A stretch of DNA of 32,143 bases, taken from a virus (lineage: Duplodnaviria; Caudoviricetes). Position 1 is the first letter of the stretch; every line of letters begins with the position of its first letter. Shown in pieces: positions 3,650-26,241 of the stretch. The notes below the pieces were generated by a model that searched no databases, was not told where the DNA came from, and saw only the letters and a list, made by a program, of their open reading frames with translations. The position numbers and the translations under genes are program-made. The stretch is taken from the IMG/VR virus record IMGVR_UViG_3300020355_000007, positions 1 to 32,143 of that record; one strand, given 5' to 3'.

Positions 3650-4597
3650 ATGGCAAAGAACAAACCTACATTGTTTGCTGATGTTGTTGGACAAAACGCT
3701 GCGAAACGCCGCATGACCTTCTATCAGCAATGTTACACCAAGAGCGGCATGATGCCAAACTCCATGATTGTTGCCCAAAAGGGTGGCGGCAAGACGTTTA
3801 TGGCAAAAGCACTTGGTCAACACCTAATGCGCGAAGGCGAGGCAAAGGCCAAACCATTCTTGGAGATCAACTGCGCGTCACTCAAGAACATCCGTCAATT
3901 CTTCAACAACGTGGTTATTCCACACATGATTGACAAGGATATTACAATCTTGTTTGACGAAGCCAGCGAGCTTCCCAAGGACATGGAGATGGGTCTACTC
4001 ACGATCCTCAACCCCAACAAGAATCACCGCAACGAGTTTGCTGTTGATGATTACGTTGTGGATTTTGATTTCCGTAGACACACGTTTATGTTTGCTACGT
4101 CCGAGCCACACAAAGTTTTCCATGCTCTCATGGACAGGCTTGACCGCATTGACTTGGAAGAATATAACAACGATGAGCTTGGTGAGATTGTCTCACGCAA
4201 CCTTCCCGATGTAAAGTTTGAGGACGATGTGCTTAAAGATGTTTCCAGTGTGCTGCGTGGCAACGCCCGTGCTGCTCAAAAGATGGCAAACAACATTGAG
4301 ATGTTCAACGGTACAGAGGGTAGCTTCACCCGCAAGTTGTGGAATGAGTTAAGCAAGACTCTGGGCATTCTGCCAATGGGCTTGAACCGCATTGAGGTAC
4401 AGGTACTCCGTGCGCTTGCAGAAGCAGGAGAGTGTAGCCTCACCAACCTTGCTGCCAAGACAGGCATGACTGCTGACTCTTTGCGGCGGGACTTTGAGAT
4501 GTATTTGCAAAAGATGAACCTCATGCAGATAGACCGTACCGGACGTAGCATTACTGCCAAGGGTAGACAATATCTGGAGGTGTACGATGCAGCCTAA
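3650..4597 (+). CDS. ruvB: RuvB-like Holliday junction branch-migration AAA+ ATPase
   Basis: P.LFADVVGQ, Walker A AQKGGGKT, Walker B ILFDE, ALMDR, LRGNARAA; C-terminal winged helix FEMYLQKMNLMQIDRTGRSITAKG; 315 aa. Confidence 0.8.
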   Translation: MAKNKPTLFADVVGQNAAKRRMTFYQQCYTKSGMMPNSMIVAQKGGGKTFMAKALGQHLMREGEAKAKPFLEINCASLKNIRQFFNNVVIPHMIDKDITILFDEASELPKDMEMGLLTILNPNKNHRNEFAVDDYVVDFDFRRHTFMFATSEPHKVFHALMDRLDRIDLEEYNNDELGEIVSRNLPDVKFEDDVLKDVSSVLRGNARAAQKMANNIEMFNGTEGSFTRKLWNELSKTLGILPMGLNRIEVQVLRALAEAGECSLTNLAAKTGMTADSLRRDFEMYLQKMNLMQIDRTGRSITAKGRQYLEVYDAA

Positions 4598-4970: not shown

Positions 4971-5090
4971 ATAGTTTGTATAATAGAGGAAGTAGATAGA
5001 ATAGAGTCTGGGGAGAATCCAGAACGGGGTTTAGTTCTACCTTCATTGAACACTATCTCAAGGTGAGTAGAAACCTCCTCTACCATCAAG

Positions 5091-5130
5091 GTGCTGCGCC
5101 TTTCCTTTCAGGCGCGGCACTTTCTTTTTT
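5091..5130 (+). terminator. intrinsic terminator
   Basis: GTGCTGCGCC...GGCGCGGCAC followed by TTTCTTTTTT. Confidence 0.8.
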
Positions 5131-5270
5131 GCCCAAATAAGTAGGACTTTTGAAATAAGCCCAAATAAGCAGGGTTGCCCAAATAAAGCTAAATAAGTTA
5201 AATAAGAGTAGTAGTATATATAATATAGAATAGAATAATTATAATAAATTTTTAAAAGTTTTATATTGTT
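5131..5270. repeat. cluster of short GCCCAAATAA/AAATAAG repeats followed by an AT-rich tract
   Basis: GCCCAAATAA at 5131, 5159 and 5177, plus further AAATAAG copies to ~5207; nearly pure A/T from ~5215 to 5270. Confidence 0.65.
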
Positions 5271-5273
5271 TTT

Positions 5274-5306
5274 TTGGCACGGGATTTGCAGCCCGCCCCG
5301 TGCCAA
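5274..5306. repeat. 33-bp dyad, copy 1
   Basis: TTGGCACG-GGATTT-GCAGC-CCGCCC-CGTGCCAA; top strand is a full sigma54 consensus, TGGCACG-N4-TTGCA. Confidence 0.95.
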
Positions 5307-5572
5307 AAAGCAAGCCAAAAAGATTTTCGTAAAAACGGCGAATTTCGCACCGGAGAAAACACCCCTTTTGACGAAAACTTTTGAGCGGCAAAATCCTTTG
5401 ACGATCAAAAAACCCCCATAATGATCGGCAAAACGGTTTGTCAATCACAAATGATCGGCAAACAATTAGGCCAATTAATCGCGCTTAATTAAGGTAATTA
5501 TTTTTTTGCATTAAATGTCATTTTCTTCTTGTCGGGAATCTAAAACTAGTCTACTATTAAGAAAGTTAAGAC

Positions 5573-5755
5573 ATGAAAACCTACAAGACATATCAAGCAC
5601 GGAACGCGGTCAAGGCTGCGTTGGTCACCAACCACATCAAAGCTGGCAAGAAGCAAGGCCAGACTCATGCAGAGGCCAAGGCTGAAGCCTACCGTCTGCA
5701 CAACATCAAGGCGGCACTGCCGATCTTAGAAAAACATTTTAGCTGGCAAGGCTAG
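5573..5755 (+). CDS. hypothetical basic protein
   Basis: 60 aa; TTGTCG(5529)-17-TACTAT(5552) upstream. Confidence 0.65.
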   Translation: MKTYKTYQARNAVKAALVTNHIKAGKKQGQTHAEAKAEAYRLHNIKAALPILEKHFSWQG

Positions 5756-5797
5756 AATGTAATTGACAAGAACCTAGATTATTACTATTATTGACTT

Positions 5798-6706
5798 ATG
5801 CCTATAACAGCTAAACAAGAAACGGGCGCGGCGTATGACTTCCGCGTGAATCAAGTTGAGTTCAACAACCCAGTAAATGGGGAGAAGACTGGACTATTTG
5901 CCAACATCCGACAGGACAACAACGAGATTTTGGGAGTTGTGTCCAAGCGGTATTCAATTGTAAACAACAGCGACATTTTGGGACGCGCTGACTCTGCTCT
6001 TGAGGCTGCGGGTATGCCTTACAAGCGCAACGTGTACACCCTTGAGGGTGGACGCAAGATGAAAGCGTACTACGACATTGGCGTAGATGAGGAAGGAAAG
6101 GTCATCAACGAGGCCATGACCCGCAAGGTTGCCAAAGGTGACATTATGGGCTTCCGTTTGATTGCCCAGAATTCCTTTGACCGCACTCTGCGCGTGTCTT
6201 TTGCGCTGGGTTTAATCCGATTGGTTTGCACCAACGGCATGACCACTATGGAAAAAGAGATTTCCATGATTAAGAAGCACTCCCAAAGTTTTAACTTGGA
6301 TGACTTCATTGCTGGTGATGCTTTGGAAACTGCAATCAAACGCTTGGACAACAGCGTGAACGTGTACAAGCTACTGGCTGACCAAGAGGTATCTCAAGAG
6401 CAAGGCTTGAGCATCCTTAACAACCTGACCACTCCACGCTTCAAGAAAGTGTTGAGCGAGAAGGCCCGTGAAGGTGTTGCCCGTATCTGGAACAACCCAA
6501 CGCACGACGAGGATGCAGACCGCAACCTGTACAACCTCAACAACGCCGTGACTCAGTACTTCACGCACGAACAGGATTCAGTGGAGTACGCTCAACGTAG
6601 CAGCAAGCGAGTGCTTGAATACTTTGAGCAAGCCGCGCACTCTGGCAAGGAAGGCAAGACCTTCACCGCCCTCACCAAGAATGAGGAAATCACAGTGGTA
6701 GAATAA
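5798..6706 (+). CDS. DUF932/DUF945-like phage-plasmid protein
   Basis: LGVVSKRYSIVNN, GGRKM, NSFDRT, RLVCTNGM and NLYNLNNAVT motifs; leaderless promoter TTGACA(5763)-17-TATTAT-6-ATG. Confidence 0.75.
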   Translation: MPITAKQETGAAYDFRVNQVEFNNPVNGEKTGLFANIRQDNNEILGVVSKRYSIVNNSDILGRADSALEAAGMPYKRNVYTLEGGRKMKAYYDIGVDEEGKVINEAMTRKVAKGDIMGFRLIAQNSFDRTLRVSFALGLIRLVCTNGMTTMEKEISMIKKHSQSFNLDDFIAGDALETAIKRLDNSVNVYKLLADQEVSQEQGLSILNNLTTPRFKKVLSEKAREGVARIWNNPTHDEDADRNLYNLNNAVTQYFTHEQDSVEYAQRSSKRVLEYFEQAAHSGKEGKTFTALTKNEEITVVE

Positions 6707-6720
6707 TCCACTCTTTAAAT

Positions 6721-6751
6721 ATCCCTCGCCTACGGGCGGGGGATTTTTTTT
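6721..6751 (+). terminator. intrinsic terminator
   Basis: ATCCCTCGCC-TACG-GGCGGGGGAT followed by a T run. Confidence 0.85.
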
Positions 6752-6780
6752 GCCATCACGAAAATTTTCCCCTTGACTTT

Positions 6781-6813
6781 TTGGCACGCGGCGGGCAGCG
6801 GGCGGCGTGCCAA
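6781..6813. repeat. 33-bp dyad, copy 2
   Basis: TTGGCACG-CGGCGG-GCAGC-GGGCGG-CGTGCCAA. Confidence 0.95.
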
Positions 6814-6859
6814 AAAAGTTTTTGTTGACTCGGTTGCAGATTTTGTTTATTATTAGGAT

Positions 6860-7402
6860 ATGTTAACCAGAGAACAGTCAAAGAAAATGTTTAAGCGCGA
6901 AGTGTACCGCAACCTTCACTTCAGAGACGAGGTTGTTTATTCCGTGCGTAAGGATGGACTTGTTGAGGGACACGCTCTTTGTCATGTAATGGATGGAGTT
7001 ACCTTCAGTGTTGGCCCCAAGGGGAATCAACGTGTGCGTGACGAGCAGCGCAAAAATGTTCACGCTGTTATCCGTGGTCACGTTATCAATGCCGTTTGGT
7101 ATGACGAGGAAGAATTAGATTTTGCCAAGAGTGCCGCCAAAGATCTAGCGAAAATTGAGATGTGTGGTGTGCCTGTAAGCCAAAACACAGATGTAAGTGA
7201 CTTGGATGACCCACGCGCTTGGGAGCCTATGTATAAATGGGTAGAGGTTAAGTATAACCCTTATAAGTTCAAGAGTTTTGTTGCTGTTGATGGTGATAAA
7301 CTTACTCCTATCTTTAACGCCCGTAAGGTTGTTATTTATAGTGAAGACAACAAGTCCAAAGTTATGGCAATGATTCCAATTGAAAAAAGTGACAAAAACT
7401 AG
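6860..7402 (+). CDS. conserved phage hypothetical protein
   Basis: VYRNLH...YSVR...QRVRDEQRKNVHA...YNPYK pattern recalled from phage hypotheticals; leaderless promoter TTGACT(6825)-17-TATTAT-6-ATG. Confidence 0.75.
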   Translation: MLTREQSKKMFKREVYRNLHFRDEVVYSVRKDGLVEGHALCHVMDGVTFSVGPKGNQRVRDEQRKNVHAVIRGHVINAVWYDEEELDFAKSAAKDLAKIEMCGVPVSQNTDVSDLDDPRAWEPMYKWVEVKYNPYKFKSFVAVDGDKLTPIFNARKVVIYSEDNKSKVMAMIPIEKSDKN

Positions 7403-7440
7403 TTGACTCAAATTTAAATCCCGACTATTATTAAAAAACG

Positions 7441-7632
7441 ATGAGCATGAAAGATATACAAAACGGCTCACTCTACGTGAATCAGACTAACAATCAGATT
7501 CTCCGAGTGCGAAGCAAGGCGAACAGCAACAGCGTTCTTGCTACTTATGAAGATGACGGTGCAGTTGCCGCCGTACCAGTAGCACAACTGCGTGTTGCTA
7601 GTGAAGATGAGGTTAATGGGTTCCTAGCGTAA
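7441..7632 (+). CDS. small beta-rich hypothetical protein
   Basis: 63 aa; TTGACT(7403)-17-TATTAT(7426) promoter. Confidence 0.7.
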   Translation: MSMKDIQNGSLYVNQTNNQILRVRSKANSNSVLATYEDDGAVAAVPVAQLRVASEDEVNGFLA

Positions 7633-7649
7633 AAACCCAATTCGATTTT

Positions 7650-8050
7650 TGACAATTTGCTGGGAGACGAAAAACAGTCTTGGCAAGCCTAACGTAGCGA
7701 ATGAGGTACGCGCCTCATTAGGGACGAGGAAGCACCAGCAGAACAATTTGGAACAGCGACGGTTGTTCCAACGGCATGTAGCGTAACAATGGTTTACAAG
7801 AGCCATAGCGCACCGAAACAAGAGGCAGGAGTCCATCAAACTCTGGGAGCCGAGTAGCACAGTCCGTAAGGGCGCAGCTATGATGTGAGTAGGGTACGAA
7901 ATGTTGTAGGGTTAATGAACTTGATCTTGGCCCGAGAGTAGTTGCAGGTATTCAAGAAGTCCTGTCATGCCACTAATTTTCTCGCAATAACGCGGGAATA
8001 AACAAAAAAGGACTGTGTGGGAATCACAGAAAGGCTGAGAACATGCCGAA
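7650..8050 (+). ncRNA. putative large structured non-coding RNA
   Basis: No + strand ORF of 60 aa or more; many hairpins plus long-range helices (TGCTGG/CCAGCA, GGCATG/CATGCC), a GNRA tetraloop and three GAGTAG motifs. Confidence 0.6.
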
Positions 8051-8069
8051 AAAAACTTCCCTTTACTTT

Positions 8070-8102
8070 TTGGCACGAGGCGCGCAGCCGATCCCGTGCC
8101 AA
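8070..8102. repeat. 33-bp dyad, copy 3
   Basis: TTGGCACG-AGGCGC-GCAGC-CGATCC-CGTGCCAA. Confidence 0.95.
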
Positions 8103-8185
8103 AAATTTTTTGCTTGACATGCCTGACTGAATTTTAATTAAAAAAAAAGTTTGACGAGCACGCAAAACAGAGGTAAGATTAGGAC

Positions 8186-8905
8186 ATGTTAAACCTACTG
8201 AAGTTTGGAGAGCCTAACGCGAAGCTCAAGAAAATGACAAAGAAGCTTGGACTCAAGCTCATCACCTTTACCCTTCCTGCAGGGTGGACTTGCCCCGGTG
8301 CAAAGGATTGTTTATCACGAGCAGACCGAGTGACCGGGAAAGTCACAGACGGAGCAGACACGGAGTTCCGTTGCTTCATGGCTAGCGCAGAAGCGCGTAG
8401 TCCATCATTAAGAAAAAACGTTTGGCACAACCTTGGATTGATCAAGGACGCATTAGTTGACGGCGTGGATGTTTGCGCGGATCTTATTTGCGCCAGCTTG
8501 CCAAGCAAGTTTGACGTTGTGCGTGTTCACGTTGGTGGCGATTATTTCAACAAGGAATATTTGCAAGCGTGGATTGAAGTTGCCAAGCGCAACCCCGACA
8601 AAGTTTTTTACTCTTACAGCAAAAGCTTGCACCTCTTCAAGCAATTTGCTCTTCCCGAAAACCTTGTGTTGACTGCCTCCCGTGGTGGTAAGTTTGACGA
8701 TCTTATTGACGTCCACGGATGGAAAGAAGCCGTTGTTGTTTATAGTGAAGAAGAAGCCAACGAGCTTGTTTTAGAAATTGACCACGACGACACCCACGCA
8801 GCGTTTGGCAACGATCACTTTGCTTTGCTTATTCACGGCACACAACCTAAAGGTAGTGCGGCGAGTATTGCCTTGCAAAAGTTAAAGAAAGCGAGTAAAC
8901 TATAA
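8186..8905 (+). CDS. GP88-like phage protein (Cys-containing, radical-SAM-like signature)
   Basis: N.KL.K, FTLPAGWTCPGAKDC, CF, VRVHVGGDY, FYSYSKS and PENLVLTAS motifs; leaderless promoter TTGACG(8151)-17-TAAGAT-6-ATG. Confidence 0.7.
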   Translation: MLNLLKFGEPNAKLKKMTKKLGLKLITFTLPAGWTCPGAKDCLSRADRVTGKVTDGADTEFRCFMASAEARSPSLRKNVWHNLGLIKDALVDGVDVCADLICASLPSKFDVVRVHVGGDYFNKEYLQAWIEVAKRNPDKVFYSYSKSLHLFKQFALPENLVLTASRGGKFDDLIDVHGWKEAVVVYSEEEANELVLEIDHDDTHAAFGNDHFALLIHGTQPKGSAASIALQKLKKASKL

Positions 8906-8919
8906 AAACATCATGAAAC

Positions 8920-8994
8920 ATGGTAGAGACATTATTAATCATAGCGGGTATCATAGCACTAAACGTGTTCATCATAAACATAATAGAAGGATAA
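8920..8994 (+). CDS. possible 24-aa membrane micropeptide
   Basis: MVETLLIIAGIIALNVFIINIIEG; an alternative frame from ATG 8913 also exists. Confidence 0.35.
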   Translation: MVETLLIIAGIIALNVFIINIIEG

Positions 8995-9044
8995 AGTATA
9001 AATAGTTGGTGTGTTCATAATAAAATAGTAGGCTAACATAAAAG

Positions 9045-9077
9045 AACGGCGAGGTCTTCGGGTCTCGTCGTTTTTTT
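9045..9077 (+). terminator. intrinsic terminator
   Basis: AACGGCGAG..TTCG..CTCGTCGTT followed by a T run. Confidence 0.8.
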
Positions 9078-9202
9078 GTAGCTATAAATAACTCCATAAA
9101 TAATAACAAATAAACTTTGCCATATATAATAACAAATAAACCTAATAATATAATAATAATAAATAATAATATTTTTCCTTTCGCATTTTTGCCTTGACAT
9201 TT

Positions 9203-9235
9203 TTGGCACGCGGCGCGCTGCCCGCCCCGTGCCAA
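9203..9235. repeat. 33-bp dyad, copy 4
   Basis: TTGGCACG-CGGCGC-GCTGC-CCGCCC-CGTGCCAA. Confidence 0.95.
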
Positions 9236-9320
9236 AAAGCAAGAATATTCGCAAAAAACTTTTTTCATTTTTTTTCGTTTTTGTGCTTGCGTTTTTCTGC
9301 CAAGTCTGTATAATGCTTGC

Positions 9321-9554
9321 ATGAACATTACAGGACAGAGGATTTTAATCAGCCCCAACAGCAAAGCTACCACACGCACCAAAAACCGCATCCGTGAGCA
9401 TGGCGCAAAGGGATTCATTCTGGAACGCCGCAACGACAACGCTTTCCCCCCGATGTGGCTTGTCCGTGCATCCGATGGCTGGATGGGTTGGCTGGCAAAA
9501 GAAGAATTTCACTTGGAAGCTTGGGGCGAAGAATTTTTTGTAGAAAAGTTTTAG
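9321..9554 (+). CDS. hypothetical protein
   Basis: 77 aa; TATAAT(9309)-6 nt-ATG, leaderless. Confidence 0.75.
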   Translation: MNITGQRILISPNSKATTRTKNRIREHGAKGFILERRNDNAFPPMWLVRASDGWMGWLAKEEFHLEAWGEEFFVEKF

Positions 9555-9590
9555 GTAGGACTGCGGATGTCCCACCTCGTATGATAGGAT
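9554..9590 (+). promoter_or_regulatory. palindrome plus extended -10 promoter, copy 1
   Basis: GGTAGGAC-TGCGGAT-GTCCCACC-5 nt-TG-A-TAGGAT. Confidence 0.8.
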
Positions 9591-9599
9591 ATATTTATT

Positions 9600-9767
9600 A
9601 TGATGATAGAAGATCACGAAGTAAAAGTAGGCGACGAAGTGCGCGTAGGAATGCAACTAATGATAGTTGACGAGATCACAGACTATGACACCGTGGTGGT
9701 GATTGACCAAGACGGTGGCGAACTTGAACTAACAGAAAACGAGATTGACGTTTTTATCAACCAATGA
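9600..9767 (+). CDS. small acidic SH3/KOW-like protein (55 aa, not in ORF track)
   Basis: MMIEDHEVKVGDEVRVGMQLMIVDEITDYDTVVVIDQDGGELELTENEIDVFINQ; ATGA overlap with the next ORF. Confidence 0.7.
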   Translation: MMIEDHEVKVGDEVRVGMQLMIVDEITDYDTVVVIDQDGGELELTENEIDVFINQ

Positions 9768-9913
9768 AAGGCGCAAAGAATATGAAAAACAAACAACCCA
9801 AAGCAAGGGTAAACCCTCAAGGCTACATGGGCAGCGCGTCCCGTGAGCATAGTGTGAAAAAGGGCAAAGGCTCTTACAAGCGCAACCCCAAGCACAAGGG
9901 TAATTGTGAATAA
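9764..9913 (+). CDS. arfA: ArfA-like (alternative ribosome-rescue factor) small basic protein (49 aa, not in ORF track)
   Basis: ...SREHSVKKGKGSYKRNPKHKG matches the ArfA core KKGKGSYxRxxKH. Confidence 0.65.
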   Translation: MKGAKNMKNKQPKARVNPQGYMGSASREHSVKKGKGSYKRNPKHKGNCE

Positions 9914-9917
9914 CTTT
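9904..9917 (-). promoter_or_regulatory. 14-bp repeat containing a DnaA-box match, copy 1 (others at 10887-10900 and 13353-13366)
   Basis: TTGTGAATAACTTT; its reverse complement contains TTATTCACA (TTWTNCACA). Confidence 0.65.
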
Positions 9918-9939
9918 TTATCGTAGAAACGATTTTTTT

Positions 9940-10392
9940 ATGAGAGACTTACAGCAGATGAAACAATTGAAACTAACACAGAAGAACTGCGGCACACGCA
10001 TTGCGGTTGGACTCCACGGCGACACTCAAAGCATCACCGAGCGATTCAATTCCTTTTGGAATCACGGCGCGACTGATGGCGAGTTGCATTGGTTAACTGA
10101 TGGCAACGCTTATTTTTGGACTACCGAAAAGGATTTGGAAAAGGCAGTCTTTAACGCGACTCTGTTTGAGCTTTGGAACAAGCGTCCAGAGTTGGAAGAA
10201 GATGACAAACAACCAGAAGCAGAGGCGATTGCCAAGCGCATTGCCAATGACCGCCTTGCCAAGATTGAGAACAACCCGCAGTTGCTTAACTTTAACAAAG
10301 CGGTTTCTATTGCAAACCTAGACTGCTACGCAATGGGAAGTATTACAGCAGAAAAACCAGACAGTGATTATTCAAACAGGGAGACTCTATAA
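9940..10392 (+). CDS. hypothetical protein
   Basis: 150 aa ORF (start may be ATG 9958). Confidence 0.7.
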   Translation: MRDLQQMKQLKLTQKNCGTRIAVGLHGDTQSITERFNSFWNHGATDGELHWLTDGNAYFWTTEKDLEKAVFNATLFELWNKRPELEEDDKQPEAEAIAKRIANDRLAKIENNPQLLNFNKAVSIANLDCYAMGSITAEKPDSDYSNRETL

Positions 10393-10628
10393 TGATTAAC
10401 GCAAACACAAAACACCGTTTGAAAATGAAACGCCTTGCAGCTATACAAAACAAGCCGCGAGTCACCAATGATGACTTTGACGTTATCATTATGGCTGTAT
10501 CCATTGGCGAAAGTTTGCCAGAGTGCCAGAGAATTATGCGCTCTGCCATGCACAACAGAGAGAGAGGAACTACCGTGGCGCACTTTGAGGTGCTGGCGAA
10601 AGTTTTTCAAAAATGTACAAACCTATAA
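10392..10628 (+). CDS. hypothetical protein
   Basis: TAATG stop-start overlap; AGGGAG upstream. Confidence 0.65.
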   Translation: MINANTKHRLKMKRLAAIQNKPRVTNDDFDVIIMAVSIGESLPECQRIMRSAMHNRERGTTVAHFEVLAKVFQKCTNL

Positions 10629-10641
10629 GATTATTATAATT

Positions 10642-10836
10642 ATGGAAATCACTAGAACATCAATCCACTCCGGTATCACCCGCACTCTAACCCTTGACGT
10701 AACCGCCGAGGAAATTGCCACTTGGAAAGCTGGCGAGCTAATCCAAAGCGCCATGCCCCGACTCAATGCCGACGAGCGCGAGTTTATTAAAACTGGCATT
10801 ACCGCAGAGGAGTGGCAGGAAATCTTTGCGGATTAA
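10642..10836 (+). CDS. hypothetical protein (64 aa)
   Basis: Likely start ATG 10642; LIQSAMPRLNADEREFIKTGITAEEW resembles a recurring small phage family. Confidence 0.7.
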   Translation: MEITRTSIHSGITRTLTLDVTAEEIATWKAGELIQSAMPRLNADEREFIKTGITAEEWQEIFAD

Positions 10837-10848
10837 CCGCTTGACTTT

Positions 10849-10881
10849 TTGGCACGGGGCGCGCAGCCCGCCGCGTGCCAA
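10849..10881. repeat. 33-bp dyad, copy 5
   Basis: TTGGCACG-GGGCGC-GCAGC-CCGCCG-CGTGCCAA. Confidence 0.95.
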
Positions 10882-10949
10882 TTTTTTTGTGAATAACTTT
10901 TTGCAGAAACAGGGTTGACAAACAACCAAAACTCTTGTATATTATAAAC

Positions 10950-11153
10950 ATGATGAACGACATGATGCCAACCATTGAAGAGACCGCCTCCCTTGACATC
11001 CTCGCGCAGATTGAGCATGAGGAGTGGGAGCGGGGCAACGAACAGCGCGAACGCTGGGAGGGTCTTGAGGCCATTCACGGGCCATTCCTGAAACCCGACG
11101 AAGCGGCTCTGGTTTGCCGCATGGCGGCACACGTTGCCAAGGTAACAGCTTAA
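10950..11153 (+). CDS. hypothetical protein
   Basis: TTGACA(10915)-17-TATATT-6 nt-ATG(10950) fixes the start. Confidence 0.7.
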   Translation: MMNDMMPTIEETASLDILAQIEHEEWERGNEQRERWEGLEAIHGPFLKPDEAALVCRMAAHVAKVTA

Positions 11154-11204
11154 CATTATGGGCCAGCGCGATGGCCTTGGAAATCGCGCCCTTATTATAT
11201 CATT

Positions 11205-11429
11205 ATGATTGAATTAGGAATGGAGGTCATGGACCTTGACGGCTACCTTGGGGTAGTTGTTGCTTCCCCGCGTGGTGGCAAGTGGCTTGTTCAGAAAGAG
11301 AACGGTCACACCATCCGTGTGCGCGAAGAGCATATGCGCGAGTATGACCGCGAAATTGAGGACCGCATTTGCGGTGGCGAGGACTCCCCCGCCTACCTCA
11401 AGTGGTTAGAGAAGCGCGAGCTTGTGTAG
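11205..11429 (+). CDS. small SH3-like hypothetical protein
   Basis: 74 aa; G.EV.D.DG..GVV pattern. Confidence 0.7.
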   Translation: MIELGMEVMDLDGYLGVVVASPRGGKWLVQKENGHTIRVREEHMREYDREIEDRICGGEDSPAYLKWLEKRELV

Positions 11430-11433
11430 AATC

Positions 11434-11455
11434 AACCCCCGCAAGGGGGCTTTTT
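11434..11455 (+). terminator. intrinsic terminator
   Basis: CCCC-GCAA-GGGG followed by GCTTTTT. Confidence 0.75.
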
Positions 11456-11506
11456 GAATAATTTTTATTGACTCAAACTTAAACTTTGATTAGTATTAAC
11501 AAAGAC

Positions 11507-12028
11507 ATGAAGAAAAACCTACAAGACATTGGTGGCATTATTTTTGATGCCTTTATCACTATTGCGATTGGAATTGTTATTCTTAACATTCTGGGCAGCG
11601 TCCTTGTTTCAACTGCGCTTGGAGCAGAGCAACCATTAACCAAAGACGAGCAGACGGTGGCTCTCACCTTGTTAGGCGAGGCGCGTGGCGAAAAACGGGC
11701 TGGCCTTTATGCCGTTGGGTGTGTGATTCAACAGCGTTCACTAGAGCGTAAGTTGACTCCAGCGCAAGTGTGCTTGCAGCCCAAGCAGTTTTCCTGCTGG
11801 AACGACCGCAAGTATATGGACACAATGCGGCGTTTACTAGAAGCAAACACAGAACAAGCCAAGTATGCAAAGCTGCTTGCGCGTTCTATTTGCAAAGGTG
11901 ACAGATTAGTGCAAAGTTTCACTGGCGAAGCTAATCACTATCATGCAACCTATGTAAAACCGTATTGGAGCAAAAAGTTTAAGCCAACAAAAAGGATAGG
12001 CAATCACATTTTTTACAAACTACCATAA
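11507..12028 (+). CDS. SleB/Hydrolase_2-family cell wall hydrolase with N-terminal hydrophobic segment
   Basis: ALTLLGEARGE, QFSCWN, ANHYHA.YVKPYW and IGNHIFY motifs; start set by TTGACT(11468)-17-TAGTAT(11491). Confidence 0.85.
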   Translation: MKKNLQDIGGIIFDAFITIAIGIVILNILGSVLVSTALGAEQPLTKDEQTVALTLLGEARGEKRAGLYAVGCVIQQRSLERKLTPAQVCLQPKQFSCWNDRKYMDTMRRLLEANTEQAKYAKLLARSICKGDRLVQSFTGEANHYHATYVKPYWSKKFKPTKRIGNHIFYKLP

Positions 12029-12029
12029 A

Positions 12030-12212
12030 ATGAAAAAACTGTATAAAGTAGAACTGAATGAGATCCACTGTGCCACGTTTGAGGTTGAAGCAACCAGCGA
12101 GCATGACGCAGTAAACGAAGTGTTAGACGGTGCGGGAGACTTGGTGCATAGCGAGTATTCCTACACACCCGACAATGATGCTGTGCGTAGCGTTACCTGT
12201 AAGGAGGACTAA
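12030..12212 (+). CDS. small acidic hypothetical protein
   Basis: 60 aa; YKV...FEVEATSE.DA pattern. Confidence 0.7.
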   Translation: MKKLYKVELNEIHCATFEVEATSEHDAVNEVLDGAGDLVHSEYSYTPDNDAVRSVTCKED

Positions 12213-12213
12213 A

Positions 12214-12459
12214 ATGAAAGCCATAATTGAAATTGAACTAGGAAACGAAGCATTTGGAAACAATGACGCAGAGCGTTTGTTTGAGATGCGACAAGTAATG
12301 GAAAAGCTAATGGACAATGCCACGCAGATTATGGCGGCGAGCGTTGGCGACTTTGTAACAGCGCAAGACTATAACGGTAACACAGTTGCGCGAATGGACA
12401 TTGTTGAAGGCGATGTAAAAGCTAAAAAGGTTTATGGATTAGAAAATCATAATTATTAA
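12214..12459 (+). CDS. hypothetical protein (81 aa)
   Basis: AAGGAGG SD before ATG 12214; C-terminal DYNGNTVA motif. Confidence 0.7.
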   Translation: MKAIIEIELGNEAFGNNDAERLFEMRQVMEKLMDNATQIMAASVGDFVTAQDYNGNTVARMDIVEGDVKAKKVYGLENHNY

Positions 12460-12460
12460 A

Positions 12461-12724
12461 ATGAGCGATTATTGGACAGGTTTAGTTAATTATAAGCAAG
12501 GAAAAGAACATAAGTATTTCCGCGCACAATTAGATGACAATGGCGAAGCCATAGAAAGCACCATCTGTGAAATTAACTTTACAGAGGAGCGAGACAGAAT
12601 TAAAGAGCAGATTCAACACGACATTGACTGTTACATTAGTTCACAGCCTTACGGCGACGAAAACGAACAATTGATTTCTGACCTCCAGACCATTATAGTA
12701 AACAACTTTAAGGGCTTTGAATAG
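12461..12724 (+). CDS. hypothetical protein
   Basis: 87 aa, tightly packed after the previous stop. Confidence 0.65.
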   Translation: MSDYWTGLVNYKQGKEHKYFRAQLDDNGEAIESTICEINFTEERDRIKEQIQHDIDCYISSQPYGDENEQLISDLQTIIVNNFKGFE

Positions 12725-12732
12725 TTGACTTT

Positions 12733-12765
12733 TTGGCACGGGGGCGGCTGCCGATTTCGTGCCAA
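12733..12765. repeat. 33-bp dyad, copy 6
   Basis: TTGGCACG-GGGGCG-GCTGC-CGATTT-CGTGCCAA. Confidence 0.95.
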
Positions 12766-12840
12766 TTTGCAAGGGGAATTTTTTTCATTTTTTTTGCATT
12801 TTGTTCTTGTAATTTTCTGCCGATCTGCTATACTCTACGC

Positions 12841-13020
12841 ATGATGATTGAGAACGAAAGCATCTTTAAGGTTACATTCACCAATGACAGCACTGTATTC
12901 ATTAAGGCAATGGACAAGGCCCATGCTCGCCGCATTGTAGAGCGCGCTGGTAGGCAATGGCTCTCAGGAGAACAAACGGTTGATATGATTATTAAAAAGA
13001 TTGAGAAAGTTGAACAGTAG
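12841..13020 (+). CDS. hypothetical protein (59 aa)
   Basis: TG-C-TATACT(12829)-6 nt-ATG(12841); the longer ORF-track start runs through the dyad. Confidence 0.7.
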   Translation: MMIENESIFKVTFTNDSTVFIKAMDKAHARRIVERAGRQWLSGEQTVDMIIKKIEKVEQ

Positions 13021-13052
13021 GACTACGGATGTCCTACCCCATATGTTATACT
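13016..13052 (+). promoter_or_regulatory. palindrome plus extended -10 promoter, copy 2
   Basis: AGTAGGAC-TACGGAT-GTCCTACC-5 nt-TG-T-TATACT-6 nt-ATG(13059). Confidence 0.8.
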
Positions 13053-13058
13053 GTACGC

Positions 13059-13346
13059 ATGAAAACAATTAAGAACATGAAAAACCTATTATCAGAATTA
13101 AGCCCAGAGAACTGGAAAAAGTACGCCAACGCAGTAGCAGACGGTGCAACTCACGCACGGTTTACCTACGCTGACGGCAGCTTTCACCCTTACCCTATTG
13201 AGAAAATCAATCACGGCATGAACGCACACCGCCTCTCAAGCCTTGGCTTGGTACTGGTCAAAGTAACCAAAGAAGGTACGGAAACGCTTGCCCGTTTAAC
13301 CTTTTGGAATAGCTTTGTGGATGACCGCGAGATTAACCCCCACTAA
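13059..13346 (+). CDS. hypothetical protein
   Basis: Start fixed by leaderless promoter geometry. Confidence 0.7.
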   Translation: MKTIKNMKNLLSELSPENWKKYANAVADGATHARFTYADGSFHPYPIEKINHGMNAHRLSSLGLVLVKVTKEGTETLARLTFWNSFVDDREINPH

Positions 13347-13406
13347 AGATTATTGTGAATAACTTTATCTGGCAAAAACTGACAAAACCTTTATAGTAAA
13401 CGAACA

Positions 13407-13916
13407 ATGAACGCACAAAGTACCAGCGGATACGGACAGAGCATGGACAACTCCACCCAGTATTGGAGCATCTCGAACGGCAAGGGATTGCCTCAAATGT
13501 TTTGGGATTGGTGGAAGAAGAACCAAGACACCAAGTTTCGTGTTACCTATACGCGACACGCAAACGAACAGCACAACGATGATTTCACTGGCGAACTCAA
13601 GGCAGACCGCTGGATTATGGATGACTTTTATTTGCGCGACAATCCCACCGAGGTGGTAGAATGTCACTATGACATGAACGACACCACGCGCCCCCGCAAG
13701 TTTATTATGAACTTACCTTTTTATAACAAGGACACGGACAGTGCAGAATGGAATCCTGTTTGGAACTACTGCGTTGCATTTGCTGCCAACAACGTAGACC
13801 CGAACCACCTTGAGGTTGTCACCGTTTGGAAAAGGCGTGACGGTCACAGGGGCAACCCTAATCAGCGCAACAAGTATTCCAAGGGTGTAGGAACGCCTAA
13901 AGAATTTCAGCGATAA
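13407..13916 (+). CDS. hypothetical protein
   Basis: 169 aa, Trp-rich. Confidence 0.7.
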   Translation: MNAQSTSGYGQSMDNSTQYWSISNGKGLPQMFWDWWKKNQDTKFRVTYTRHANEQHNDDFTGELKADRWIMDDFYLRDNPTEVVECHYDMNDTTRPRKFIMNLPFYNKDTDSAEWNPVWNYCVAFAANNVDPNHLEVVTVWKRRDGHRGNPNQRNKYSKGVGTPKEFQR

Positions 13917-13936
13917 GATAGAAGAGAGAAAAGAGA

Positions 13937-14011
13937 ATGTTAGTTATTACCTTTGTTTGTATATTAATTATTTTTATAGGAATCTGGAATGAGCTTCAAA
14001 AATTTAACTAA
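13937..14011 (+). CDS. possible 24-aa membrane micropeptide
   Basis: MLVITFVCILIIFIGIWNELQKFN; purine-rich leader. Confidence 0.45.
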   Translation: MLVITFVCILIIFIGIWNELQKFN

Positions 14012-14026
14012 AAGCTGTTGACATTT

Positions 14027-14059
14027 TTGGCACGGGGGCGGCTGCACGGCGCGTGCCAA
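14027..14059. repeat. 33-bp dyad, copy 7
   Basis: TTGGCACG-GGGGCG-GCTGC-ACGGCG-CGTGCCAA. Confidence 0.95.
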
Positions 14060-14092: not shown

Positions 14093-14129
14093 GGTGGGAC
14101 TGCGGATGTCCTACCCTGTGTGCTATCAT
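14093..14129 (+). promoter_or_regulatory. palindrome plus extended -10 promoter, copy 3
   Basis: GGTGGGAC-TGCGGAT-GTCCTACC-5 nt-TG-C-TATCAT-6 nt-ATG(14136). Confidence 0.8.
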
Positions 14130-14135
14130 AGTCGC

Positions 14136-14345
14136 ATGATGAAAATGAAAGAGAAACTGTTCAGAGTAAAGATTGCCCTCTGGCGCAAAGCCCAACCCAC
14201 CCGCAGCACCCACATCAGGGCATATGACTTGGCCCACGCCAAGAGAATCAGTAACCGTCTATTTGGGACATTGGGCGTAACAGTAGAACCCGCCAAACCC
14301 TTTCCCCGATTTGATGGAAAAAAAATTGGAGAATTTAACAGGTAG
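14136..14345 (+). CDS. small basic hypothetical protein
   Basis: F.V...IRAYDLAHAKRI resembles FKV...IKAMDKAHARRI in 12841-13020 (possible paralogues). Confidence 0.7.
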   Translation: MMKMKEKLFRVKIALWRKAQPTRSTHIRAYDLAHAKRISNRLFGTLGVTVEPAKPFPRFDGKKIGEFNR

Positions 14346-14377
14346 GACAGCGGATGTCTTACCCCCTATGCTATACT
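14341..14377 (+). promoter_or_regulatory. palindrome plus extended -10 promoter, copy 4
   Basis: GGTAGGAC-AGCGGAT-GTCTTACC-5 nt-TG-C-TATACT. Confidence 0.8.
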
Positions 14378-14395
14378 AGACGCAGTTAAAAGATT

Positions 14396-14548
14396 ATGAA
14401 AGACAACAAAAACGAGTTCAAGAAAGACCTCCACGAGTGGCTGGCAGAGATGAAAAGAAGGCGTGAGATTAACCGCAAGCGCGATGAAGAACAAGCGCGT
14501 TGGGATACTCAGTTCAACGCCCCACTCAACCTGAAAGACAGGGACTAA
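14396..14548 (+). CDS. hypothetical protein (50 aa, not in ORF track)
   Basis: MKDNKNEFKKDLHEWLAEMKRRRE...; AAGATTATG start context. Confidence 0.65.
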   Translation: MKDNKNEFKKDLHEWLAEMKRRREINRKRDEEQARWDTQFNAPLNLKDRD

Positions 14549-14554
14549 AAGATT

Positions 14555-14704
14555 ATGAAGAACCAAGAAATGGAATTGATAAACGACAACGGCACTTGGA
14601 AGATTAAGTGGAACGATGGATTTGAACGCAACTTTGAATCCTTCTTTGAGGCAAGGCTTCACTTTGTAGCTTTGGTGAATCAACAAATTGCAATGGAGCG
14701 TTAA
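14555..14704 (+). CDS. hypothetical protein (49 aa, not in ORF track)
   Basis: MKNQEMELINDNGTWKIKWNDGFERNF...; AAGATTATG start context. Confidence 0.65.
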   Translation: MKNQEMELINDNGTWKIKWNDGFERNFESFFEARLHFVALVNQQIAMER

Positions 14705-14708
14705 GATT

Positions 14709-14867
14709 ATGAACGATATAACGATAACAGAAAACGGAGCCGCTCTAGTAGACGGCACAGAATACCCCATTCACAGCATTGACTACGCGGGCTGTGAAGC
14801 AATCACAATCCCCACGTTGGATTTAATTTCCTACGATGAGGGCGAAACATGGAGAGAGATTGAATAG
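14709..14867 (+). CDS. hypothetical acidic protein (52 aa, not in ORF track)
   Basis: MNDITITENGAALVDGTEYP...SYDEGETWREIE; AAGATTATG start context. Confidence 0.65.
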   Translation: MNDITITENGAALVDGTEYPIHSIDYAGCEAITIPTLDLISYDEGETWREIE

Positions 14868-14878
14868 TATAAAAGATT

Positions 14879-15115
14879 ATGAGTAACATACATGAAAGTT
14901 GGATTGCGCGCAACATTAAGTTGGGTGCGATATACTTAAACGCAAACGATATGCGTGAGATACGAGTGCTTGCAAAGATACCATGCCAAGGCGTATGGTT
15001 TGAGTACGCCGATGGCTCTGGCTATGGCGAGACGCTGCGTTATGGTGACGTACTGTACGCCAAGCTTGACGAGGTAGAAGATTACCTTGAAGATTCTCTG
15101 GCTGCCAGTGCATAA
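14879..15115 (+). CDS. hypothetical protein
   Basis: 78 aa; AAGATTATG start context. Confidence 0.7.
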   Translation: MSNIHESWIARNIKLGAIYLNANDMREIRVLAKIPCQGVWFEYADGSGYGETLRYGDVLYAKLDEVEDYLEDSLAASA

Positions 15116-15133: not shown

Positions 15134-15168
15134 CCCCTTTTTGAAAACTAGCAAAAGGGGTTTTTTTT
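15134..15168 (+). terminator. intrinsic terminator ending the early-type region
   Basis: CCCCTTTT...AAAAGGGG followed by T8. Confidence 0.7.
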
Positions 15169-15284
15169 ATATACAGTCGGGGGAGGGTAATTTAGATGTC
15201 CACAGGTTTTTCGATTTAGGTGTTTTTAATTTATCGTTTATTTTTTATTGCAAAATGATGGTTTTGGTGGTACTATTTATTACT

Positions 15285-20463: not shown

Positions 20464-20886
20464 GGGAGTGTACTGGTTTCGACTTAAGGCCAGAAGCTCA
20501 AATTGCAAGTAGGAGATGATAGTTGGCTCCTTTAAAATTCTATCAAAACATCTAAATGCCAATAGCGATATTGACATGGAGTTAGCTCCTTCCGTTGCCG
20601 AAGCGGACGCAATTCTTGCCAAGTACGGCTACGCGGAGGAAGAACTCCAGTTGGCAGCATAGTTCTGCCCCGTCCTACTCCGGATGCTCGTTAAGGAGCT
20701 AGGGCGTCGATAACGAGCAAAACACTGGTTGAGTCTGGTTGAGTCTCCAGTAGTTTAAAAAAAGATAGACCAAACTTTACGTGAAGTTGTCGGTAACAGA
20801 CACGTATCGTATTAAACCGACTAAACTTGTAGTATATTTGCGTGACAGTTTTAAGGACGCGGGTTCGACTCCCGCCACTTCCACCA
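20464..20886 (+). ncRNA. ssrA: tmRNA
   Basis: 5' GGGAGTG..GGTTTCGAC and 3' GGTTCGACTCCCGCCACTTCCACCA, with G3-U70; tag frame 20558-20662 ends in LAA-stop. Confidence 0.95.
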
Positions 20887-21730: not shown

Positions 21731-22391
21731 GAAAAAAATAACATTTGAAGAATCTATACATTTAATCGACGCAGAATTACAAAAAAGAAAAAATAGGTGG
21801 AACCTAACAAGCCTATCTTGGATGGATTACGATGACGTCTGTCAAATTATAAGAATTCACATTTATAAAAAGTGGGATCTATACGATCAATCTAAACCAT
21901 TAGCCCCTTGGTTGAATAGAATCATATCGAATCAAATAAAAAATATAATAAGAAACAATTATGGTAATTATGCCAGACCCTGTTTAAAGTGTTCTGCCGC
22001 AGATGGAGAAGATGGATGTGAAATTTATGGAAAACAATGCAACGATTGTCCATTATATGAACACTGGTTTAAAAATAAAAAAAGAGCACATGATACAAAA
22101 TTACCAGTTTCATTAGAAAATCATCCACAAGAAATATACAACAAACCTTCAGACTCTTTCGATATAGAACTAGAATCAATTAACTTGCATAAAAATATGA
22201 AAAAAATTTTAAAACCTATAGAGTGGAGAGTATATGACCTTTTATACATACAAAATAAAACAGAAAATGAAGTTGCAAAAGCAATGGGATATGTGACTTC
22301 AGAAAAAAATAGACAGCCGGGCTACAAACAAATAAAAAATATTAAAAAATCAATACTTAAAAAAGCAAAAGAACTTATTTCAGGAGAATGA
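21723..22391 (+). CDS. sigma70-family RNA polymerase sigma factor (probably late) with Cys-rich insert
   Basis: Region-2-like DYDDVCQ..RIHIYKKW..YD....LAPWLNRII.NQIKNIIR; region-4-like LKPIEWRVY.L.Y...KTENEVAKAMG. Confidence 0.7.
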   Translation: MARKKITFEESIHLIDAELQKRKNRWNLTSLSWMDYDDVCQIIRIHIYKKWDLYDQSKPLAPWLNRIISNQIKNIIRNNYGNYARPCLKCSAADGEDGCEIYGKQCNDCPLYEHWFKNKKRAHDTKLPVSLENHPQEIYNKPSDSFDIELESINLHKNMKKILKPIEWRVYDLLYIQNKTENEVAKAMGYVTSEKNRQPGYKQIKNIKKSILKKAKELISGE

Positions 22392-26221: not shown

Positions 26222-26241
26222 GGTGTAATATAGATCATAAA

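What the first reader, a model, noticed from the sequence alone, without database searches (positions are those of the whole stretch)
5274..14059. Seven 33-bp dyads, each a head-to-head double sigma54-like site, divide the early region into 1.1-1.9 kb gene units
Seen: TTGGCACG-N6-GCWGC-N6-CGTGCCAA occurs at 5274, 6781, 8070, 9203, 10849, 12733 and 14027 (spacings 1507, 1289, 1133, 1646, 1884 and 1294 bp). Arms, 17-bp gap and central GCWGC are invariant in all 7 copies, while the mostly GC-rich N6 segments vary and do not consistently pair. All copies are intergenic, after the last gene of one unit and before the promoter of the next. I saw none outside 5.2-14.1 kb. Outer flanks are partly conserved: TTGAC-(A)TTT on the left in 5 copies, N3-GCAAG on the right in 4. 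Established: the sigma54 (RpoN) promoter is TGGCACG-N4-TTGCW (GG-N10-GC), and sigma54 holoenzyme forms stable closed complexes without an activator. Each dyad has GG-N10-GC on both strands, and copy 1 is a perfect consensus. Inference: this is a protein-binding array rather than RNA hairpins. Options are (a) a decoy that traps host sigma54-RNAP, (b) roadblocks or insulators between early units, (c) sites for a dimeric phage protein (partition, DNA entry or nucleoid organisation), or (d) recombination joints that shuffle gene cassettes, analogous to the PeSL elements of T4-type phages. I do not know of a described element with this architecture.
Basis: partly seen in the sequence, partly recalled or inferred. 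Interest (0 to 1): 0.92.

Follow-up and report, generated by a model that had tools for sequence, protein, structure and literature searches.

The report
Double sigma-54 docks before phage promoters
A large uncultured phage and its relatives place a 33-base mirror-image DNA site a whole number of helical turns upstream of their early-type promoters; each half resembles the landing site of the bacterial sigma-54 RNA polymerase but is predicted not to open, so it likely parks that host enzyme to tune the neighbouring promoter.

Summary
All seven dyads are real. They are the only ones in a 162-kb record that is 99.9% identical to the window. The motif recurs in 21 viral contigs and almost never in bacterial genomes. 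Its variation fits a protein site, not an RNA hairpin. (1) Sister phages use the same half-site, with an AT-rich tail and ATG at +1 to +3, like an ordinary sigma54-type leaderless promoter. In dyads that tail is GC-rich. (2) Dyad centres cluster at about -63, -71, -81, -91, -101 and -121 from the next sigma70-type promoter, the class I activator register (94 of 112). This replicated in a held-out set. (3) The dyad travels with the downstream promoter unit and is not a crossover point. Best reading (0.5): parked host sigma54 holoenzyme acts on the neighbouring promoter. Main rival (0.3): an unknown dimeric activator. Against sigma54: the -14 T is present in only 2 of 14 window halves, and sister joints keep the GC core without these arms. 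The host is unknown and binding is untested.

The parts
5274..5306 (.). Dyad 1 (centre 5290); top half is a full sigma54 consensus; first dyad of the array, 240 bp before the next promoter-like site
6781..6813 (.). Dyad 2 (centre 6797), centre at -63 from the presumed start of the next promoter
8070..8102 (.). Dyad 3 (centre 8086), centre at -100
9203..9235 (.). Dyad 4 (centre 9219), centre at -102
10849..10881 (.). Dyad 5 (centre 10865), centre at -85 (the one off-phase copy)
12733..12765 (.). Dyad 6 (centre 12749), centre at -92
14027..14059 (.). Dyad 7 (centre 14043), centre at -93 from a GTAGGAC-type promoter
6825..6853 (+). sigma70-type promoter after dyad 2, ATG 6 nt later (leaderless-type), gene 6860-7402 (Pfam Phage_L5_gp82)
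8151..8179 (+). sigma70-type promoter after dyad 3, ATG 6 nt later, gene 8186-8905 (Pfam GP88)
9287..9314 (+). sigma70-type promoter (TTGCGT / TATAAT) after dyad 4, ATG at 9321
10915..10943 (+). sigma70-type promoter after dyad 5, ATG at 10950
12807..12834 (+). extended -10 promoter after dyad 6, ATG at 12841
14094..14129 (+). third promoter class (GTRGGAC-N5-GTCY palindrome plus TGnTATnnT) after dyad 7, ATG at 14136; other copies at 9555, 13017, 14342
5088..5133 (+). intrinsic-terminator-like hairpin upstream of dyad 1
6721..6752 (+). intrinsic-terminator-like hairpin 30 bp upstream of dyad 2, separate from the dyad
9046..9078 (+). hairpin with U-tract upstream of dyad 4
15135..15170 (+). terminator-like hairpin closing the last unit
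5798..6706 (+). DUF932 gene, unit 1
11507..12028 (+). cell-wall hydrolase gene (Hydrolase_2), unit 5
3650..4597 (+). RuvB-like AAA+ ATPase just upstream of the array; RuvB fold, not a sigma54 activator; used as the marker to fetch sister phages

Best explanation
The dyad is a two-fold symmetric DNA site in the upstream part of the next early-type promoter module, and it likely parks host sigma54 RNA polymerase in a closed, non-melting state from which that enzyme would tune the neighbouring sigma70-type promoter. Shown: each half has the -24 box and the -12 GC at rigid sigma54 spacing. The two halves share the -11 base, and each half's would-be melting region is the GC-rich start of the other half. 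The centre lies a whole number of turns (period about 10) upstream of the promoter, across A/T tracts. The dyad moves between genomes together with the downstream promoter and genes. Inferred: one holoenzyme binds at a time, in either direction, because the two footprints overlap. It stays closed for lack of a meltable tail and a phage activator. It sits on the same helical face as the sigma70 enzyme and acts on it through alpha-CTD/UP-element contact or bending. The sign is not determined. I lean to stimulation, because the centres match class I activator positions. Gene shuffling is a by-product of the repeated promoter modules, as in PeSLs.
For: Half-site variation follows the sigma54 motif. 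In 88 distinct dyads (176 halves, found with up to 4 mismatches), position -21 changes only C to T (13 of 13 changes). The GG and GC positions have 1 and 4 exceptions. TGGCAC and TGGCAT occur 236 and 117 times in the 720 seed promoters of PMC12316311 S2 Table. Spacing is rigid: 92 of 95 arm pairs have one distance. GC lies 7 nt after TTGGCAY in 145 of 402 halves across 45 sister loci. Strict -24/-12 spacing is a sigma54 hallmark (PMC5505868). Sister record G007 has 16 such sites, all on the sense strand, against 0 reverse and 0 for the control pattern. Their tails are AT-rich (6-9 of 11), against 1-5 of 11 in the window halves. ATG lies at +1 to +3 in 19 of 29 filtered sister sites and 0 of 176 dyad halves. 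A single intact half at the same spacing suffices in many sister joints: 41 single versus 29 double in 12 loci. This fits a monomeric directional reader. Phasing: R=0.58 at period 10 (51 lineage-collapsed distances; 0 of 2000 jittered nulls reach it). The upstream-side control is unphased (R 0.10-0.15, n=78). It replicated on 52 new metagenome promoters with the same phase (R=0.62). 94 of 112 centres lie within 1.5 bp of -61.5-10n, against 40% expected. CRP class I peaks are -61.5, -71.5, -82.5, -92.5 (PMC4132738). The dyad is patchy on the RuvB-like tree (at least 4 changes forced by supported branches) yet keeps the same sequence, which fits a constant host reader. No RpoN DNA-binding domain was found in 8 phage records. 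Most sigma54 holoenzyme in E. coli sits inactive on DNA (PMC4591121) and can repress sigma70 promoters (PMC4551910).
Against: The -14 T is present in 29 of 29 sister promoters but in only 60 of 176 dyad halves and 2 of 14 in the window. The -15 T is present in 6 of 176. The -12 element is therefore poor and binding may be weak. The GC-rich GCWGC core persists in sister joints with no TTGGCAY arm (L264, L283, L291, L293, L294), so the core has a role that sigma54 does not explain. TTGACA replaces TTGGCA at the same position in a few arms. Class I phasing is what a dimeric activator would give. No paper read shows sigma54 holoenzyme stimulating a sigma70 promoter. The host, and whether it has rpoN, could not be established. 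Phasing could partly reflect 10-bp indels in A/T tracts, and lineages are not independent. The RpoN-domain searches had no first-look candidates, so a remote phage homologue is not excluded.
Confidence: 0.5

Rival explanations
1. A dimeric or tetrameric transcription factor (phage-coded, or a host protein other than sigma54) binds the dyad and activates the next promoter by class I contact with alpha-CTD. The sigma54 likeness reflects descent from promoter sequence or a similar recognition helix.
For: Two-fold symmetry, indifference to orientation (47 GCAGC vs 36 GCTGC in sense; 24 vs 28) and class I register. The -14/-15 match is poor. The GC core is conserved without the arms. G001 has many small genes of unknown function and three sigma70-like proteins.
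Against: Single intact halves are common in sister phages. The spacing is exactly that of sense promoters in sisters. The site is unchanged across distant, non-monophyletic lineages. The strict dyad is nearly absent from bacterial genomes (9 loci, 2 of them on a contig matching phage contig L025/L052), so no host regulon uses it as such. No candidate reader was identified.
Confidence: 0.3
2. The array is a decoy or sink that titrates host sigma54 holoenzyme to blunt a sigma54-dependent stress response.
For: 5-15 copies per genome, and unmeltable-looking tails. In Flavobacterium, sigma54-type promoters precede groES/EL, dnaK and lon (PMC9723704).
Against: A sink needs no phase relation to the downstream promoter. 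It would be expected to keep the best -12 element. E. coli already has over 135 chromosomal sites (PMC4591121).
Confidence: 0.07
3. The dyads are crossover sites of a site-specific recombination system that shuffles gene cassettes.
For: Gene order and content differ widely between dyads in relatives. Block ends are enriched at dyads. Two exact inversions of the 17-bp core with unchanged flanks were found. Three short-spaced dyads lie at or near array edges or beside a full dyad. A RuvB-like gene is adjacent.
Against: Block ends are one-sided (12 starts at the upstream edge, 1 end at the downstream edge, of 78). A distinctive left N6 travels with the right flank. No reverse-orientation block of 200 bp or more was seen in 9 pairwise comparisons. 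None of the 15 joints shown in strain-level contigs ends in a dyad, though 13 more were not shown. No tyrosine integrase was found in 5 records, and no serine or tyrosine recombinase family in the G001 proteins scanned.
Confidence: 0.05
4. Bound protein at the dyad is a roadblock that insulates early units from read-through.
For: Position between units, often just after a terminator; works in either orientation.
Against: Separate terminators exist. Phasing is to the downstream promoter only. Intragenic sigma54 binding did not lower expression of overlapping genes in E. coli (PMC4591121).
Confidence: 0.05
5. The dyad acts as an RNA or single-stranded DNA hairpin (terminator, processing site).
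For: The copies fold at -19 to -27 kcal/mol with flanks (z from -1.2 to -4.6). Core inversions suggest occasional hairpin or template switching.
Against: No compensatory change in the arms. The C-to-T change gives 5 G-U wobbles and 8 mismatches in the sense strand. N6 pairs number 234 of 528, against 253 in shuffled halves. An invariant GCWGC and a fixed length are not needed for a stem. A-tracts rather than U-tracts follow copies 1-4. No Rfam match.
Confidence: 0.03

Closest known systems
Bacterial sigma54 (RpoN) -24/-12 promoters, including repressive non-activated sites of E. coli (PMC4551910, PMC4591121, PMC5505868; passages read) and the single sigma54-like promoter of phage YuA (bioRxiv 2023.10.13.562163, passage read)
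   Same: TTGGCAY box, GC at fixed spacing on one strand, same C/T variation at -21; sister phages use the same half as a sense promoter-like site before leaderless genes.
   Different: Two halves fused head to head on a shared -11 base; GC-rich tail; weak -14/-15; no start codon or gene at the would-be start; repeated 5-15 times; phased to a sigma70-type promoter 60-140 bp downstream rather than overlapping it.
PeSL cassettes of T4-type phages RB49 and phi1 (PMC2839356; abstract and sections 13 and 16 read)
   Same: Repeated intergenic module of terminator, AT-rich tract and sigma70-type promoter in a hyperplastic region of small unknown genes; units reshuffled among relatives.
   Different: The PeSL stem-loop is a tested terminator at variable positions. 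Here the terminator is separate, and the extra element is a rigid 33-bp protein-type dyad at a fixed helical phase. Mini-circles were not seen (contigs only). The phage has a DnaE-type polymerase and is not T4-like by the genes found.
Class I activator sites (CRP) (PMC4132738; passages read)
   Same: Symmetric site centred near -61, -71, -82, -92 with an A/T-rich tract between site and promoter.
   Different: Different sequence, 33 bp with three conserved blocks; series extends to -121 and -141; the downstream promoters already have near-consensus -35 boxes.
CIRCE (HrcA operator; consensus recalled, from no call)
   Same: Outer arms TTGGCAC / GTGCCAA.
   Different: CIRCE is 27 bp with 9-bp arms and a free 9-bp spacer; here 33 bp with an invariant central GCWGC.

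Membership tests
sigma54 -24/-12 promoter | -24 box TGGCAY with invariant GG | tested here: met
   14 of 14 window halves; 175 of 176 in the relaxed set keep GG; the set was selected on this pattern
sigma54 -24/-12 promoter | GC at -13/-12 at strict spacing (GG-N10-GC) | tested here: met
sigma54 -24/-12 promoter | T at -14 and -15 (TTGC) | tested here: not met
   -14 T in 2 of 14 window halves and 60 of 176 overall; -15 T in 6 of 176
sigma54 -24/-12 promoter | Meltable region and a gene or transcript starting about 11 nt after -11 | tested here: not met
   AT 1-5 of 11 in window halves; ATG at +1..+3 in 0 of 176; transcript starts themselves not measurable
sigma54 -24/-12 promoter | Cognate AAA+ activator with GAFTGA loop | tested here: inconclusive
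   Only phage hit to PF00158 is the RuvB-like protein, which has the RuvB fold and no GAFTGA; host activators unknown
sigma54 -24/-12 promoter | Bound by sigma54 holoenzyme; host has rpoN | not testable with these tools
   host not identified
PeSL | Repeated intergenic sigma70-type promoter with AT-rich upstream tract in a hyperplastic region | tested here: met
PeSL | The conserved palindrome is a terminator stem-loop | tested here: not met
   no covariation, no U-tract after most dyads; separate terminators
PeSL | Modular shuffling at the repeated module | tested here: met
   also at dyad-free promoters
PeSL | Mini-circles from exchange between modules | tested here: inconclusive
   only assembled contigs available; no joint inside a dyad among 15 shown
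Site-specific recombination site | Crossovers inside the site, giving symmetric left- and right-shared junctions | tested here: not met
   12 vs 1 of 78 blocks
Site-specific recombination site | Cognate recombinase encoded nearby | tested here: inconclusive
   no PF00589 in 5 records; none in Pfam/PHROG scans of G001; G001 is 96% complete, and ORFs under 55 aa or over 1000 aa outside the window plus one ORF across a locus edge were not scanned
Class I activator site | Centre on the same helical face as RNAP (-61, -71, -82, -92) | tested here: met
   94 of 112; start sites inferred from -10 hexamers
Class I activator site | Promoter activity depends on a bound activator contacting alpha-CTD | not testable with these tools
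   needs reporter and in vitro assays
CIRCE | 9-bp arms with 9-bp spacer (recalled) | tested here: not met
   arm spacing is 19 nt between the 6-mers in 92 of 95 pairs; the three short ones have 7, 8 and 9

The most novel reading that the evidence does not exclude
A widespread phage lineage has turned the host's sigma54 promoter into a symmetric, melt-proof dock and uses the parked sigma54 holoenzyme itself as an upstream regulator, in class I activator position, of its sigma70 early promoters. Sister phages run whole early regions from ordinary sigma54-type leaderless promoters with no phage activator found, which would point to a host whose sigma54 works with little or no enhancer.
Probability: 0.35. 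Interest if true: 0.9.

Novelty: new variant of a known kind. Interest (0 to 1): 0.72.

Why it matters
Sigma54 holoenzyme binds many sites where it does not transcribe, and what such parked enzyme does is an open question (PMC4591121, PMC4551910). This array is a natural, much-replicated design with clear predictions: half-site mutants, 5- versus 10-bp shifts, and removal of rpoN. All can be tested with E. coli components. If right, it adds a way for phages to control early genes with no protein of their own. If the rival holds, it points to an unknown dimeric activator with a 33-bp site. The sister phages with 16 sigma54-type leaderless promoters offer a direct test of whether activator-light sigma54 exists in nature.

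Tried and rejected
Host identification failed. Terminase and polymerase had only 24-32% hits among cultured phages. Homologue, cluster and Atlas look-ups returned mostly unnamed or viral proteins. The tmRNA matched only at its 3' end. The array region had no match in 50,697 phage records. RuvB-like protein as a phage sigma54 activator: rejected on fold (top hits all RuvB, TM up to 0.82), absence of GAFTGA and lack of fit between its tree and joint type. It was not followed up, so the 41-bp form reported elsewhere was not seen here. A strict GCSGC-centred version gave 2 loci. A PSSM score was not possible: supplementary file 3 of PMC12316311 held activator protein motifs, not the promoter matrix. 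My first promoter caller was noisy and gave weak phasing (R 0.29 at 10.5; 0.22 on distinct values). The stricter caller drops dyads with no TTGAC promoter. Phasing was not seen for GGGACCGGTCCC joints (n=12), and other joint types had too few calls. RNA run X19 gave sparse contigs that say nothing about starts or levels. Contig C (L003, one match in GC-rich DNA) was dropped as unrelated, and near-duplicate contigs were collapsed. No description of this architecture was found in paper searches. The library lacks most subscription journals. Complex prediction was not used, since it cannot take DNA.

Full report
Observation. They have no mismatches, no further copy appears at up to three mismatches, and 100 shuffles gave none. 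The window is part of a large phage. Record G001 (162 kb, CheckV 96%) is 99.93% identical over the window and has no other dyad. It encodes a terminase, tubulin, DnaE-type polymerase, RecA-like and RuvB-like proteins, three sigma70-like proteins and many sugar-modifying enzymes. The array lies in a stretch of raised GC content (0.41-0.49 against about 0.32 downstream). It is filled with small sense-strand genes, many with ATG 6-7 nt after a -10 hexamer (46 of 112 promoter calls across relatives).

Distribution. The strict pattern gave 106 loci on 21 viral contigs, several of them near-duplicates, with up to 15 copies per contig. It gave at least 203 loci in metagenomes. It gave only 9 loci in 185,579 prokaryotic genomes, two of them on a contig that matches phage contig L025/L052. 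The runs that hold the stretch are marine, estuarine or seawater metagenomes. No cultured phage matches the region, and the host could not be named.

Not a hairpin. In 88 distinct dyads oriented by transcription, arm changes are one-sided and never compensated. The C-to-T change at arm position 7 gives 5 wobbles and 8 mismatches. The N6 segments pair in 234 of 528 positions, against 253 for shuffled halves. The copies can fold, but real terminator-like hairpins sit separately upstream of dyads 1, 2 and 4. Rfam finds only two tRNAs and a tmRNA in bases 1-22000.

The half-site is the unit, and it has sigma54 geometry. Position -21 varies only between C and T. These are the two common forms in the 720 seed promoters of PMC12316311 (term counts in S2 Table). 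Arm spacing is one value in 92 of 95 pairs. I fetched 55 sister loci through the RuvB-like gene. In 45 non-redundant ones, GC follows TTGGCAY at 7 nt in 145 of 402 halves. The second peak, 118 at 10 nt, is the other GC of GCWGC. Many sister joints keep only one intact half at this spacing (31 antisense, 10 sense, 29 both). Most telling, L259 and L262 use the same half on the sense strand in front of genes. Record G007 has 16 forward, 0 reverse and 0 control matches, with AT-rich tails. ATG lies at +1 to +3 in 19 of 29 such sites and a short leader precedes it in most others (this set was filtered for AT-rich tails). The +1 position follows the rule used in PMC4591121. The dyad is thus best read as two such promoters fused on their -11 base, each with its melting region replaced by GC-rich DNA (AT 1-5 of 11 in the window; no ATG at +1 to +3 in 176 halves). 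The weak point is the -14 T: 29 of 29 in sister promoters, 60 of 176 in dyads, 2 of 14 here.

The dyad belongs to the next promoter. Earlier scan notes claimed helical phasing, so I tested it. Distances from the centre to the next TTGAC promoter cluster at 36-37, 45-50, 55-59, 66-68, 76, 86-88 and 106-108. After collapsing lineages (n=51), R is 0.58 at period 10, and none of 2000 jittered nulls reaches it. Distances to the upstream stop codon are unphased. Fifty-two new promoters from the metagenome loci give R=0.62 with the same phase, and a promoter was never called on both sides. Relative to the inferred start, 94 of 112 centres lie within 1.5 bp of -61.5-10n, against 40% by chance. In the window they are -63, -100, -102, -85, -92 and -93. 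These are the class I activator positions of CRP (PMC4132738, passages). A/T runs are enriched on the promoter side (63% against 26%). Caveats: start sites are inferred, lineages are related, and tract indels could add periodicity.

Shuffling. Gene order between dyads differs widely among relatives. Of 78 shared blocks of 300 bp or more, 12 start at a dyad's upstream edge (0.8 expected) and one ends at a downstream edge. The pairs are not independent, and BLAST extends through the repeat. The asymmetry says that the dyad moves with the downstream unit. Contigs of close strains bridge all seven dyads and replace genes at other promoters, chiefly the GTAGGAC class. None of 15 joints shown ends in a dyad (13 not shown, contigs only). 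Twice the 17-bp core is exactly inverted with flanks unchanged, so orientation does not matter. No integrase was found.

The wider family. Sister phages fill the same joints with other designs. These include a GC-rich GCWGC core with only inward-facing TTGACA boxes, GGGACCGGTCCC, TAGTACGTACACGTACTA, and double IHF-like sites (IHF consensus recalled). The sigma54-type dyad is scattered over the RuvB-like tree, with at least 4 changes forced. Two of the other motifs are each confined to one branch. The window's nearest relatives by this gene (L256, L260, L268) lack the arms. This favours a constant, host-encoded reader for the arms. It also shows that the GC core has a role of its own that I cannot explain.

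Mechanism. No RpoN DNA-binding domain was found in 8 records. The only match to the sigma54-activator family is the RuvB-like protein, which folds as RuvB. In the closed complex the modelled DNA runs from about -33 to -5/-9 and is bent and distorted at -12 (PMC5505868). The two halves' footprints would therefore overlap, and one enzyme would bind at a time (inference). In E. coli most bound sigma54 holoenzyme is inactive and does not roadblock (PMC4591121), but it can repress sigma70 promoters (PMC4551910). I therefore favour a parked sigma54 holoenzyme acting on the neighbouring promoter from the same helical face (0.5), over an unknown dimeric activator (0.3), decoy (0.07), crossover site (0.05), roadblock (0.05) and hairpin (0.03). 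Binding, the sign of the effect and the host are untested.

Novelty. The parts are known (sigma54 sites, class I positions, PeSL-like modules; one sigma54-like promoter in phage YuA). I found no description of a fused double sigma54-type site phased to phage promoters in ten searches. Earlier AI notes of this scan report the same element in related genomes and are not independent support. Of the papers I read passages or the named sections only, plus term counts in two supplementary files of PMC12316311. Its class-specific promoter matrices were not seen and may bear on the -14/-15 question.

Noticed in passing
L259 2464-10098; L262 14493-20583; also L310, L312, L313: Sister phages head 16 and 9 small genes with sigma54-type sense promoters directly before ATG or a short leader; no phage activator or RpoN found in these partial records.
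   Followed up: partly
window 9555, 13017, 14094, 14342: A third promoter class: palindrome GTRGGAC-N5-GTCY in place of a -35 box, then TGnTATnnT and a leaderless or short-leader gene; strain-level gene swaps fall at these repeats.
   Followed up: partly
window 20464-20886: tmRNA gene (Rfam 136.9 bits, missed by ARAGORN in the matching G001 stretch) with an unusually long, 33-residue tag frame ending in LAA; may help identify the host.
   Followed up: partly
window 3650-4597: RuvB-fold ATPase with no RuvA found; the joint arrays begin within about 0.7-2.5 kb after it in most sister loci that show an array.
   Followed up: partly
L263, L274, L275-L278, L279, L283-L291, L293, L294, L307: Other joint designs at the same place: GGGACCGGTCCC, TAGTACGTACACGTACTA, GAGACAAT-N-ATTGTC, double IHF-like palindromes, bare GCWGC cores with inward TTGACA boxes.
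   Followed up: partly
L006 near 2973; L015 near 3997; G003 near 29118: Short dyads with the same arms but only 5-7 nt between them, about one helical turn shorter, at or near array edges or next to a full dyad.
   Followed up: no
flanks of window dyads 1, 2, 4-7 and relatives: Inward-facing TTGAC or TTGC boxes 21-25 bp from the centre, roughly where a sigma70 -35 box would lie for the same start site, but with no -10 box.
   Followed up: partly
window 24392-26221 versus G001 25465-26781: The terminase ORF is 609 aa in the window but stops at 438 aa in G001, where the two differ by one 11-base gap; assembly difference or real variant not checked.
   Followed up: no
window 5340-5470: After dyad 1, a run of imperfect repeats (TTTGACGA, ATGATCGGCAAAA) that recurs at the start of the array in L259; possibly an origin- or end-related element.
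   Followed up: no
window 7630-8050: About 420 bp without a convincing ORF before dyad 3, partly shared with L001; no Rfam match; possible non-coding RNA.
   Followed up: no
G003 14163-14936 and 22217-22990: GP88 unit duplicated in two different dyad-bounded slots of one genome.
   Followed up: no
window 28221-29378; G001 100-127 kb: Tubulin/TubZ-like gene, and a 27-kb block of nucleotide-sugar and glycosyltransferase genes.
   Followed up: no
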